Shown here piece after piece: positions 8,433 to 8,852 of a stretch of 64,000 nt of DNA. Origin of the DNA: an uncultured Gammaproteobacteria bacterium. Lineage in GTDB: Bacteria > Patescibacteriota > Patescibacteriia > Magasanikbacterales > GWA2-37-8. The position numbers and the translations under genes are program-made. The stretch lies in NCBI GenBank assembly GCA_964465205.1, contig CAYXJO010000001.1, forward strand, positions 5,099-69,098, given 5' to 3'. The notes under the pieces were generated by a model. That model saw nothing but the letters and a program-made list of their open reading frames with translations, was not told where the DNA came from and made no database searches. The first letter of the stretch is position 1. Every line of letters begins with the position of its first letter.

Positions 8433-8446
8433 TTTTTTTGTTAACA

Positions 8447-8520
8447 AAAAACGCCCACATTATTATTTTGTTCCGTTAAGCTGTTCGAGCTCTGGAACCA
8501 AATAACGATGTGGGCGTTTT
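8447..8520. terminator. Long imperfect hairpin (arms AACGCCCACAT / ATGTGGGCGTT) flanked by T-runs on both strands; candidate bidirectional terminator
   Basis: 11-bp perfect arms enclose an inner GTTCC...GGAAC hairpin. T-tracts follow on both strands. It sits between convergent genes. Confidence 0.5.
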
Positions 8521-8527
8521 ATTTCAT

Positions 8528-8644
8528 TTATTTGCGTTTTTTGGTCGCTTTTTTCTTGGTCGTTTTTTTGGCGACTTTACGTACGACTTTCTTTTTGGCG
8601 ACTTTACGTACGACTTTCTTTTTTGCTTTTTTCTTGGCTGCCAT
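8528..8644 (-). CDS. 39-aa lysine-rich basic protein with a tandem 10-aa repeat (MAAKKKAKKKVVRKVAKKKVVRKVAKKTTKKKATKKRK); histone H1/Hc-like DNA-binding candidate
   Basis: Not in the ORF track because it is under 60 aa. Strong SD AAGGAGGTG lies 6 nt upstream of the ATG. TAA stop is followed directly by the hairpin terminator. A 30-nt direct repeat in the DNA encodes KKVVRKVAKK twice. Confidence 0.6.
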   Translation of the reverse strand: MAAKKKAKKKVVRKVAKKKVVRKVAKKTTKKKATKKRK

Positions 8645-8852
8645 ATTGGGCACCTCCTTTCTTTTTTAGGATGAAGAATTTTTTCGAACTCGCGATCGCG
8701 AGAAAAAATTTTGCAAATATTTTTTACCAGACAAGCATTTTGGTAAAAAAGTTCGACCTATAGATATTGTATGCTATCTATTTGAAAATTACCATAGTAA
8801 AACACAAAGTTATCCACAGGGCCCTGTGTTTTTTGATGGTGGTATTATTGCA

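What the first reader, a model, noticed from the sequence alone, without database searches (positions are those of the whole stretch)
8440..8660. Unannotated 39-aa lysine-rich tandem-repeat protein gene with strong RBS and shared bidirectional terminator
A minus-strand ATG at 8644 is preceded by AAGGAGGTG. It encodes MAAKKKAKKK-VVRKVAKKK-VVRKVAKK-TTKKKATKKRK and ends in TAA directly before a long hairpin. The hairpin has T-runs on both strands and also terminates the convergent PHP/EndoQ-like gene. The DNA contains an exact 30-nt direct repeat (GACTTTACGTACGACTTTCTTTTTGGC...), so the peptide repeat is young. The gene is too short for the ORF track. Its composition resembles histone H1/Hc-like nucleoid proteins. 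A dedicated tiny chromatin-like protein would be notable in a reduced genome.
Basis: seen in the sequence. Interest (0 to 1): 0.55.

Follow-up and report, generated by a model that had tools for sequence, protein, structure and literature searches.

The report
Tiny lysine-rich protein gene, conserved
A 38-amino-acid, almost pure lysine/alanine/valine protein gene is real and belongs to a previously undescribed family found across many ultra-small Patescibacteria, where it probably coats DNA or RNA the way a histone H1 tail does, and automatic annotation usually misses or mis-reads it.

Summary

The ORF (8644..8528, minus strand) is a genuine gene:
- 60 of 77 assessable EndoQ-anchored Patescibacteria loci carry a 15-132-aa (A/V/P/T)KKK-repeat ORF in the same place, convergent to EndoQ.
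- 52 of 59 genes have an AAAGGAGGTG Shine-Dalgarno 6-11 nt before the ATG.
- All share an A-run/stem/T-run bidirectional terminator with EndoQ.
- Close pairs differ by 25 synonymous against 4 non-synonymous codons.
- Repeat periods are always multiples of 3.
- Slippery poly(A) runs are avoided.
- Lysine is kept regardless of genomic GC.

No Pfam, NCBIfam or HMMER match exists. Longer relatives score below threshold against Hc2 and Burkholderia H1-like models, so this is an analogue by composition, not a member. The DNA/nucleoid role is inferred only.

New here: in the window's clade the gene has a conserved structured 5' leader. Hairpin 1 has an invariant loop AUGCUUGUC and a covarying stem. 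It persists even in close relatives that have lost the ORF.

Gene callers skip or mis-frame the gene.

Verdict: a real gene and a new variant of the bacterial H1-like polycation kind. Moderately interesting.

The parts
8528..8644 (-). Coding sequence of the 38-aa lysine-rich protein (ATG 8644-8642, TAA 8530-8528)
   Evidence: Family conservation. Excess of synonymous over non-synonymous changes. Codon and poly(A) tests.
8565..8623 (-). Exact in-frame tandem duplication, 27-nt period, 2.2 copies (encodes VVRKVAKKK twice)
   Evidence: 19 of 59 family genes have such exact repeats, and every period is a multiple of 3.
8651..8660 (-). Shine-Dalgarno region AAAGGAGGTG. Its GTG is an in-frame alternative start that misleads gene callers.
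   Evidence: 52 of 59 family genes have an SD-like core, ending a median of 8 nt before the ATG.
8672..8715 (-). Leader hairpin 2: U-run, then the palindrome CTCGCGATCGCGAG (8689-8702), then an A-run. No U-tract follows it, so it is not a terminator.
   Evidence: (I5). The same architecture with different GC stems occurs in L003-L009, L013, L084, L091, L108, L156, L165, L201 and L204.
8720..8750 (-). Leader hairpin 1: stem UUUUUUACCA/UGGUAAAAAA with an 11-nt loop containing the invariant AUGCUUGUC
   Evidence: (I9), 46, 48 and 49: 95.7% of cells paired, 5 of 10 pairs with double changes, 0 of 500 shuffles as good; the covariance model gives 55 bits here and one hit per related locus.
8752..8771 (-). 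Putative -10 box TACAAT (8771-8766) and the conserved AGGTCGAA (8759-8752) at the inferred transcription start
   Evidence: The arrangement TATAAT, 6-12 nt, (A)GGTCGA(A) recurs in L003, L005, L007, L012, L013, L084, L091, L108, L201 and L204. The transcription start itself is inferred, not measured.
8810..8818 (.). TTATCCACA (DnaA-box sequence) about 38 nt upstream of the -10 box, conserved in position in the clade. It is also upstream of the divergent promoter at 8853-8881.
   Evidence: It sits 80-96 nt upstream of the hairpin-1 loop in the window, L003-L008 and L013. Its role is unknown, and the motif is common at promoters in this window.
8448..8520 (.). Bidirectional intrinsic terminator shared with EndoQ. 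The basal stem is AAAACGCCCACAT/ATGTGGGCGTTTT, and a nested inner hairpin (8461-8507) extends it.
   Evidence: Every family locus has an A-run/GC-stem/T-run hairpin at this position. The inner segment occurs only once in the window.
7155..8432 (+). Convergent Endonuclease Q homologue (425 aa from the ATG at 7155), the conserved syntenic partner
   Evidence: P0001: 100% identity, 425 aa. Synteny.

Best explanation
Window 8644..8528 (minus strand) is a genuine monocistronic gene.

**How it is expressed**
- It is transcribed from its own promoter (TACAAT at 8771-8766).
- The transcript has a leader of about 115 nt with two conserved hairpins.
- It is translated from a near-perfect Shine-Dalgarno sequence.
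- It is terminated by a very stable hairpin that also terminates the convergent Endonuclease Q gene.

**The product**
- It is a 38-aa peptide of about 4.4 kDa (my arithmetic) with 22 basic and no acidic residues.
- It is one member of a Patescibacteria-wide family of 15-132-aa proteins built from (A/V/P/T)1-3-(K/R)2-5 units.
- Length in the family changes quickly by in-frame repeat slippage.

**Most likely mechanism (inferred, not shown)**
- It is a sequence-non-specific polycation that binds nucleic-acid phosphate backbones.
- It would neutralise charge and compact or shield the chromosome, as the C-terminal tail of linker histone H1 and chlamydial Hc2 do.
- The structured leader probably sets mRNA stability or gives feedback control.

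**My sub-probabilities**
- Real translated gene: about 0.93.
- Polyanion-binding polycation: about 0.8.
- DNA/nucleoid as the main target: about 0.45.
For: **Shown by tool results**

1. Conservation and synteny.
   - 58 of 80 EndoQ-anchored loci have the ORF convergent and 36-430 nt from EndoQ's stop.
   - With relaxed criteria this is 60 of 77 assessable loci. The loci come from Magasanik-, Uhr-, Falkow-, Komeili- and Nomurabacteria MAGs.
   - In loci sampled only through the leader RNA motif, 15 of 19 have the ORF 55-97 nt downstream. EndoQ is again convergent in 11 of about 13 assessable loci.
2. Translation signals.
   - An SD-like core is present in 52 of 59 genes, at a median spacing of 8 nt.
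   - Antisense ORFs have one in only 3 of 59.
3. Coding constraint.
   - Close pairs differ by 25 synonymous against 4 non-synonymous codons, and by 28 third-position against 6 first/second-position changes.
   - Ala, Val, Pro and Thr use all third positions.
   - The other sense frames carry stops in 38 and 48 of 59 genes.
   - Exact tandem repeats occur in 19 of 59 genes, and every period is a multiple of 3.
   - The longest A-run is shorter than under a synonymous AAA/AAG permutation: 0 of 1000 permutations were as low, and no run exceeds 8.
   - The K+R fraction is 0.60 in every GC bin, and Lys is not replaced by Arg.
4. Terminator. The window hairpin is -38 kcal/mol with z = -8.3 on both strands, and an equivalent hairpin is present in every family locus.
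5. Leader. Hairpin 1 shows covariation, and the covariance model hits exactly once per related locus in 666 kb.
6. Composition. K 50%, A 19%, R 10%, V/T/P about 6% each, D+E 0. The longer members' best (sub-threshold) hits are the Hc2 and H1-like models.

**From the literature**
- Hc2 varies in length through its number of lysine-rich repeats and binds DNA (PMC2848022).

**Inference**
- A +22 net charge in 38 residues with no fold-forming residues leaves polyanion binding as almost the only plausible activity.
Against: - There is no direct evidence of transcription, translation or DNA binding.
- No homology to any characterised protein can be shown. Low complexity defeats HMMER: 0 hits among 1.84 billion representatives and none among 267 word-sharing candidates.
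- The nearest relatives by EndoQ identity (L205 at 75%; L001 and L002 at 68%) lack the ORF at this locus. It is therefore dispensable there or has moved.
- About a fifth of the anchored loci lack it.
- A structured, conserved leader is more typical of RNA-binding proteins, such as ribosomal-protein operons, than of known nucleoid proteins.
- H1-like lysine repeats can serve other polyanions. AlgP acts on polyphosphate granules (PMC9239181).
- AF2 predicts one long helix (pLDDT 92), but 38 of 59 members contain prolines. No common structure supports a specific binding mode.
Confidence: 0.6

Rival explanations
1. It is an RNA- or ribosome-associated polycation. It would act as a small RNA chaperone or ribosome-bound protein that stabilises rRNA in these reduced ribosomes, and it would repress its own mRNA by binding the leader hairpins.
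For: - The conserved structured leader lies between the promoter and the SD, as in autoregulated ribosomal-protein operons (established knowledge).
- CPR ribosomes are reduced and lack uL1, bL9 and uL30 (PMC9297842 abstract).
- Tiny, highly basic ribosomal proteins such as bS22 exist (PMC10081302 abstract).
- An RNase III gene lies upstream on the same strand in several relatives.
Against: - Length ranges from 15 to 132 aa and repeat number turns over quickly. This does not fit a fixed ribosomal binding pocket.
- There is no hit to any ribosomal-protein model.
- The leader is restricted to one clade while the ORF is widespread.
- Hairpin 1 persists where the ORF is gone, so it is not merely the protein's operator.
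Confidence: 0.2
2. It binds another polyanion such as polyphosphate, as AlgP does, or cell-envelope polymers, rather than nucleic acid.
For: The H1-like lysine-repeat protein AlgP localises to polyP granules and spaces them (PMC9239181). Binding by such a sequence is driven by charge and is not specific.
Against: No polyP genes were seen near the locus in the parts of the window and loci I examined. The only conserved neighbour is a DNA-repair nuclease. There is no signal peptide or hydrophobic segment for export.
Confidence: 0.07
3. It is an exported cationic peptide, either antimicrobial or acting on the host surface of these episymbionts.
For: It is short and strongly cationic. AF2 predicts a helix for the window member. 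Patescibacteria live attached to hosts (general knowledge).
Against: - It lacks Leu, Ile, Phe and Trp, so it has no amphipathic hydrophobic face. The family is 60% K+R and 35% A/V/P/T.
- It has no signal or leader peptide.
- No transporter or immunity gene is linked to it, and its neighbours vary.
- Members reach 132 aa and are proline-rich.
Confidence: 0.05
4. It is not a protein gene. The ORF would be a by-product of an A-rich non-coding RNA or terminator region, or the real gene would be the Phe/Leu-rich antisense ORF (8508..8669, plus strand).
For: - Antisense frames are open in 45 of 59 loci.
- ORF-less relatives keep the promoter, hairpin 1 and terminator as an sRNA-like unit.
- Gene callers often ignore the ORF.
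Against: - The SD is present for 52 of 59 sense ORFs against 3 of 59 antisense ORFs.
- Close pairs differ by 25 synonymous against 4 non-synonymous codons.
- All repeat periods are multiples of 3, and poly(A) runs are avoided.
- The N-terminus (MAK, MPA or MAA) and the K/R-rich C-terminus are conserved.
- The antisense frames are open simply because Lys, Ala and Val codons cannot give antisense stops.
Confidence: 0.04

Closest known systems
Chlamydia histone H1-like protein Hc2 (HctB; Pfam PF07382, NCBIfam NF038052)
   Same: - It is a Lys/Ala-rich, low-complexity, highly basic bacterial protein.
- Its length varies between strains through the number of in-frame lysine-rich repeats (PMC2848022). 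The family here shows the same pattern.
- It is the best, though sub-threshold, model hit for long family members.
   Different: - Hc2 is 165-237 aa. This protein is 38 aa, and the family median is 35 aa.
- Scores are below the cut-off (25.9 against 40 bits), and the window peptide gets no hit at all.
- The phylum, genomic context and regulation differ. Hc2 has no EndoQ synteny, and nothing like this leader is described for it in the papers I searched.
C-terminal domain of eukaryotic linker histone H1
   Same: By my recollection, the H1 tail is likewise dominated by Lys, Ala and Pro with some Ser, Thr and Val, is disordered, and acts by charge neutralisation of DNA.
   Different: There is no winged-helix globular domain and no Linker_histone hit. 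This is a stand-alone peptide, and no homology can be demonstrated.
Other bacterial H1-like lysine-repeat proteins (Pseudomonas AlgP, the Burkholderia type NF038053, the N-terminal domain of Streptomyces DdbA)
   Same: They are built from AKKA/PAKK-type basic repeats and bind polyanions such as DNA or polyP granules (PMC9239181, PMC3643593). There is a weak hit to NF038053 (19.3 bits).
   Different: They are several-fold longer or fused to other domains. The score is far below the 80-bit cut-off. None is described in Patescibacteria in the searchable literature.
Tiny basic ribosomal proteins (bS22, bL36 and similar)
   Same: Similar size range (30-45 aa) and strong positive charge.
   Different: They have fixed length and a defined sequence. 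This family varies ninefold in length and matches none of their models.
Bidirectional intrinsic terminators between convergent genes
   Same: It has an A-tract, a GC-rich stem and a T-tract, so either strand yields a hairpin followed by U's. It lies between two convergent stop codons, and the arrangement is conserved in all family loci.
   Different: The window's copy is unusually long: 73 nt and -38 kcal/mol, with a nested inner hairpin inserted in the loop. L032, L033 and L047 show similar nesting.

Membership tests
Hc2 / HctB (PF07382, NF038052) | Score at or above the curated HMM cut-off | tested here: not met
   The window peptide has no hit at E <= 1. The best relative scores 25.9 bits against the 40-bit cut-off for PF07382, and 13.2 bits against 135 for NF038052.
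Hc2 / HctB (PF07382, NF038052) | Lys/Ala-rich repeats whose copy number varies between close relatives | tested here: met
   Lengths run from 15 to 132 aa. 19 of 59 genes have exact in-frame tandem repeats.
Hc2 / HctB (PF07382, NF038052) | Binds and condenses DNA | not testable with these tools
   This needs EMSA or nucleoid condensation on expression in E. coli.
Burkholderia-type histone H1-like DNA-binding protein (NF038053) | Score at or above the curated cut-off (80 bits) | tested here: not met
   The best relative scores 19.3 bits, and the window peptide has no hit.
Eukaryotic-type linker histone H1 | Winged-helix globular domain (Pfam Linker_histone) | tested here: not met
   There is no Pfam hit at E <= 1. 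AF2 gives one helix only, with no fold.
Small basic ribosomal proteins (bS22, bL36, bL34 and others) | Match to the family model, and a fixed length across species | tested here: not met
   There is no Pfam or NCBIfam hit, and the family length varies from 15 to 132 aa.
Protein-coding gene (general) | Start codon with SD, a frame conserved in relatives, and an excess of synonymous change | tested here: met
   SD in 52 of 59 genes. 25 synonymous against 4 non-synonymous codon differences. All repeat periods are multiples of 3.
Protein-coding gene (general) | Evidence of transcription and translation | not testable with these tools
   No expression data are available. Tryptic proteomics would destroy the peptide, which has a Lys or Arg every 1-4 residues.
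Bidirectional intrinsic terminator | A stable GC-containing stem followed by a U-tract on both strands, between convergent genes | tested here: met
   -37.9 and -38.5 kcal/mol, z = -8.3 and -8.2, flanked by A and T tracts. An equivalent hairpin is present in all family loci.
Known cis-regulatory RNA or sRNA family (Rfam 15) | Match to a curated covariance model | tested here: not met
   Only tRNAs pass the gathering threshold in the window. A permissive scan of 8400-8930 gives only chance-level hits, all at 20.4 bits or less and far below their cut-offs.
Structured RNA element (leader hairpin 1) | Base pairs kept through compensatory changes | tested here: met
   95.7% of cells are paired, against 39-57% when the 3' partner is slid. 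5 of 10 pairs show double changes. 0 of 500 shuffles reach the covariation score. Caveat: pairs 8-13 were partly fixed by my search pattern, so the informative pairs are 6-36, 7-35, 14-28 and 15-27.
Amino-acid attenuator leader peptide | A short ORF rich in one amino acid, upstream of a regulated operon on the same strand | tested here: not met
   The ORF is followed directly by the terminator and then by the 3' end of a convergent gene. No downstream gene lies on its strand.

The most novel reading that the evidence does not exclude
This is a Patescibacteria-wide minimal 'histone-tail' protein. It would be the main DNA counter-ion packing a roughly 1-Mb chromosome into ultra-small cells, and it has been largely invisible because gene callers skip or mis-frame it and trypsin destroys it.

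In this clade it would be carried on a dual-function RNA. The 5' module (hairpin 1, with the invariant loop AUGCUUGUC) would have an independent, possibly trans-acting role, which would explain why it survives in lineages that have lost the ORF.
Probability: 0.2. Interest if true: 0.8.

Novelty: new variant of a known kind. Interest (0 to 1): 0.6.

Why it matters
- **Possible role in DNA packing.** Patescibacteria make up a large share of bacterial diversity, have tiny cells and reduced genomes, and are almost entirely uncultured. How they organise and protect their DNA is poorly known. A conserved, probably highly expressed polycation of 15-132 aa would be a candidate core component of that organisation.
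- **A gap in current methods.** The family is absent from Pfam and NCBIfam. Of the nine relatives I inspected, one had a correct gene call, two had calls in the wrong frame, and the rest had none. Standard tryptic proteomics would not detect it.
- **Directly testable.** The peptide is short enough to synthesise.
- **A new RNA motif.** The leader RNA motif is a separate new candidate regulatory element. It has good covariation support and an unexplained independence from the ORF.

Tried and rejected
1. **Sequence homology searches for the peptide.**
   - The search for homologous proteins rejected the 38-aa query as too short. With the 41-aa GTG-start version it found 267 word-sharing candidates, none significant.
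   - Exhaustive phmmer against 1.84 billion representatives gave 0 hits.
   - Low complexity defeats these methods, so the negatives say nothing about distribution. Synteny and motif-anchored searches worked instead.
2. **Exact look-ups of 22 family sequences.** None was 'in the collection'. I first read this as evidence that the genes are never called. I rejected that reading because the 48-aa L206 product has a called gene on record yet is also reported absent. The window's own contig is not indexed either.
3. **Prediction that Arg would replace Lys in GC-rich genomes.** This was not found (Spearman not significant). I now read the result as selection for lysine itself.
4. **Is the region an origin of replication because of the DnaA box?** Rejected. 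Cumulative GC skew rises monotonically across the window, and the box occurs at many promoters.
5. **Is hairpin 1 simply an extended -10 promoter (TGGTAAAAT) or a palindromic operator?** This is less likely. TATAAT boxes lie upstream of it in most relatives, and G·U pairs place the structure on the transcript strand.
6. **Is the inner part of the terminator a repeated mobile element?** It has no second copy in the window.
7. **Rfam.** It has nothing for the leader or the hairpin.
8. **Consensus folding of hairpin 2.** It failed in the MAFFT alignment because of indels. Support for hairpin 2 is by inspection of individual sequences only.
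Full report
**1. The observation**

- On the minus strand, an ATG at 8644 follows AAAGGAGGTG (8660-8651). It opens a 38-codon frame, MAAKKKAKKKVVRKVAKKKVVRKVAKKTTKKKATKKRK, that ends in TAA at 8530-8528.
- The peptide has 19 Lys, 3 Arg and no acidic residue.
- The DNA contains an exact tandem duplication with a 27-nt period (8565-8591 = 8592-8618). The identity continues for 5 more bases, giving a 59-nt span of 2.2 copies.
- Seven bases after the stop comes a 73-nt hairpin (8448-8520) with 27-nt arms.
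  - It folds at -37.9 kcal/mol on the minus strand and -38.5 kcal/mol on the plus strand.
  - The z-scores are -8.3 and -8.2, and none of 200 shuffles folds as well.
  - It is bracketed by an A-run and a T-run, so either transcript ends in a hairpin followed by U's.
- The convergent gene (7155-8432) stops 15 nt before the hairpin. It is a full-length Endonuclease Q homologue (E = 7.5e-53 to PfuEndoQ 5zb8; TIGR00375).

**2. Is it a gene? Evidence from relatives**

I used EndoQ as an anchor and fetched 80 loci from GTDB species representatives. All are Patescibacteria, and the nearest are Ca. Magasanikbacteria at up to 68% identity.

- 58 of the 80 loci have a small ORF at the same place, convergent to EndoQ and 36-430 nt from its stop. 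It begins MAK, MPA or MAA and is made of (A/V/P/T)(K/R)n units.
- Relaxed criteria add L061 and L070. Three loci have too little downstream sequence to assess, so the count is 60 of 77.
- Lengths run from 15 to 132 aa, with a median of 35.
- 52 of 59 genes have a GGAGG-type core ending a median of 8 nt before the ATG. Usually this is the full AAAGGAGGTGA.
- Every locus has an A-run/GC-stem/T-run hairpin between the two stop codons.

Direct tests of coding constraint all point the same way:
- Three close pairs differ at 25 synonymous but only 4 non-synonymous codons, and at 28 third-position against 6 first/second-position sites.
- Ala, Val, Pro and Thr codons use all third bases.
- The other two sense frames contain stops in 38 and 48 of 59 genes.
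- 19 of 59 genes contain exact tandem repeats. Every period is a multiple of three, and none is not.
- AAA and AAG are used almost equally (675 and 641). They are interleaved so that the longest A-run is shorter than in any of 1000 synonymous permutations and never exceeds 8. This is the pattern expected if slippery poly(A) tracts are selected against.
- The basic fraction is 0.60 in every GC class. Lysine is not replaced by arginine even where the neighbouring gene exceeds 48% GC. My predicted K-to-R shift was wrong, but the result still argues for selection on the protein.

The antisense ORFs the tool lists (8508..8669 and 8510..8674, plus strand) are a by-product of composition. Such frames are open in 45 of 59 loci, but only 3 have an SD.

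**3.

Aligning the intergenic region with the two closest GTDB relatives showed conserved blocks upstream of the ORF. Comparing more relatives gives a common architecture for the window's clade:

- a TTATCCACA box;
- a -10 box (TATAAT; TACAAT at 8771-8766 in the window);
- (A)GGTCGAA (8759-8752), which is probably the start of the transcript;
- hairpin 1 (8750-8720), with an invariant loop AUGCUUGUC;
- hairpin 2 (8715-8672), a GC palindrome closed by U-run/A-run pairs with no trailing U-tract;
- often a third hairpin;
- then the SD.

Evidence for hairpin 1:
- It has 9-10 pairs, and none is broken.
- Compensatory changes are seen (ACCA/UGGU, ACAU/AUGU, AUAU/AUAU), and the G·U pairs only work on the transcript strand.
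- 95.7% of cells are paired, against 39-57% when the partner is slid.
- 5 of 10 pairs have double changes, and 0 of 500 shuffles reach the covariation score.
- Caveat: my metagenome pattern fixed part of the stem, so the informative pairs are the four outer and inner ones.

Distribution of the leader:
- A covariance model finds exactly one hit per locus in the window, L001-L009 and L013, and nothing convincing elsewhere in 666 kb.
- A metagenome scan for the loop plus 3' arm returned 19 loci with the complete hairpin. 15 of them have a K-rich ORF starting 55-97 nt downstream. EndoQ is again the convergent neighbour in 11 of about 13 assessable loci. This sample is independent of the EndoQ anchor.
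- Rfam has no matching family.
- In the window, the leader folds into hairpins 1 and 2 as expected, and the SD is only weakly paired.

**4. An unexplained twist**

The nearest relatives by EndoQ identity fall into two groups.

- L201-L203 (72%) and L204 (71%) carry the full unit, with ORFs of 23 and 21 aa.
- L205 (75%), L001, L002 (67-68%) and L097 keep the box, promoter, hairpin 1 and terminator(s) but have no ORF or SD.

Hairpin 1 is therefore under constraint on its own. It might act as a small RNA, as a protein-binding site or as a 5' stabiliser. I could not decide between these. The ORF may also have moved elsewhere in those genomes, which I could not test.

**5. What the protein is**

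- No Pfam or NCBIfam model matches the window peptide.
- Long family members get only sub-threshold hits: Hc2 (25.9 against 40 bits) and the Burkholderia H1-like protein (19.3 against 80 bits).
- HMMER searches find nothing, as expected for low-complexity sequence.
- AF2 predicts a single helix without any fold (pLDDT 92). Because 38 of 59 members carry regular prolines, a helix is not a family property.
- Family composition (K 50%, A 19%, R 10%, V/T/P about 6% each, D+E 0) is that of a linker-histone tail or Hc2.
- Rapid length change by repeat number matches what is described for Hc2 (PMC2848022).

The best-supported mechanism is therefore a non-specific polycation that binds phosphate backbones. 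DNA/nucleoid is the most likely target. This step is inference.

The rivals are:
- RNA or ribosome binding with autoregulation through the leader. The leader favours this, and the ninefold length variation argues against it.
- PolyP binding as in AlgP (PMC9239181).
- An exported cationic peptide. There is no hydrophobic face, signal peptide or linked transporter.
- A leader-peptide or attenuator role. This is excluded because nothing lies downstream on its strand.

**6. Why the synteny?**

Only the EndoQ side is conserved. The upstream neighbour varies, and the window's 175-aa ORF is found in none of the 80 loci.

The two genes share one short terminator-filled spacer, so few rearrangement breakpoints are tolerated there. 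That may suffice to explain the linkage. A functional link to DNA repair is possible but not shown.

**7. Annotation status and novelty**

Among relatives whose called genes I could inspect:
- One call is correct: L206, 48 aa.
- Two calls are in the wrong frame. One starts at the GTG inside the SD (L204), and the other starts in the leader (L208).
- L201-L203, L205, L207 and L209 have no call. L205 has no ORF. L207 has an uncalled 28-aa ORF.

Exact look-ups in the protein collection were uninformative (see Tried and rejected). Literature searches found no description of such proteins in Patescibacteria.

I classify this as a new variant of a known kind, the bacterial H1-like lysine-repeat polycations. 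It is minimal and stand-alone, not demonstrably homologous to known members, and comes with a new conserved synteny and a new candidate leader RNA.

**8. Verdict**

- Real gene: about 0.93.
- Polyanion-binding polycation: about 0.8.
- Nucleoid protein: about 0.45.
- Interest: 0.6. The finding is solid, testable and points to a blind spot in annotation, but the function is unproven and the general kind is known.

Noticed in passing
window 8810, 11797, 22264, 32664, 41627, 45075, 63004, 63460: The DnaA-box sequence TTATCCACA occurs 8 times exactly in 64 kb, where I calculate about 0.5 by chance. With up to 1 mismatch there are 25 matches against a shuffled mean of 15.6. At 11797 and 22264 it lies 8-9 nt upstream of a TTGACA-17-TAnAnT promoter. 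It also lies upstream of the small gene's promoter in many family loci. It looks like a general promoter-proximal element in these genomes. GC skew shows no switch, so it is not an origin.
   Followed up: partly
L205:1604-1890, L001:3015-3335, L002:5255-5545, L097: The closest relatives lack the K-rich ORF but keep the box, promoter, leader hairpin 1 and one or two terminator hairpins. This forms an sRNA-like unit of about 100 nt, so hairpin 1 is conserved independently of the protein.
   Followed up: partly
L204:3823-3915(-), L208:2915-3088(-), L207:2840-2935(-): Public gene calls at this locus are often wrong. L204 and L208 are read in the wrong frame, starting at the GTG inside the Shine-Dalgarno or in the leader. 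L207, L201-L203 and L209 have no call. Only L206 is right.
   Followed up: yes
L089, L121, L122, L131, L143, L146, L153, L170, L191 (leaders): In other clades the leader's second hairpin is a different, well-conserved element, GGTGTGTACCATGGTCACATC (a 6-bp stem with the loop UACCAUGGU). Some of these leaders also have an extra hairpin before hairpin 1. Not analysed.
   Followed up: no
window 9803-11674, and 47700-55500: These are high-GC blocks in a genome of about 42% GC. One is an SPFH/Band-7 gene in a 2-kb stretch at 58% GC, next to two tRNA genes (12083-12154 and 12266-12338). The other is a cluster at 55-57% GC encoding NAD synthase, nicotinate phosphoribosyltransferase and an NMNAT/NAD-kinase-like fusion. 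They are probably horizontally acquired islands. An assembly chimera is not excluded.
   Followed up: partly
window 8916-9443 (+): The divergent 175-aa ORF has no Pfam or NCBIfam match and no homologue in any of the 80 syntenic loci. It has a near-consensus promoter at 8853-8881. It is an orphan gene that lies, together with the SPFH island, between the small gene and the tRNA/RNase III region.
   Followed up: no
window 12351-13133 (-); L004, L008, L012, L013, L204: An RNase III gene lies upstream of the small gene on the same strand in several relatives, and 3.7 kb away in the window. The long leader helices could be RNase III substrates. This is pure speculation.
   Followed up: no
window 8461-8507; L032, L033, L047: The terminator hairpin carries a nested inner hairpin inserted in what is a simple 4-8-nt loop in most relatives. 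Three other loci show independent nested palindromes in the same terminator. The inner sequence occurs only once in the window.
   Followed up: partly
L061:2109-2228 (-): One family member is arginine-rich rather than lysine-rich (MVTRTTRRATPKARPAAKRTVARKPARRAPARKVARKRR), although its genome is only about 38% GC. It is an exception to the otherwise strict lysine preference.
   Followed up: no
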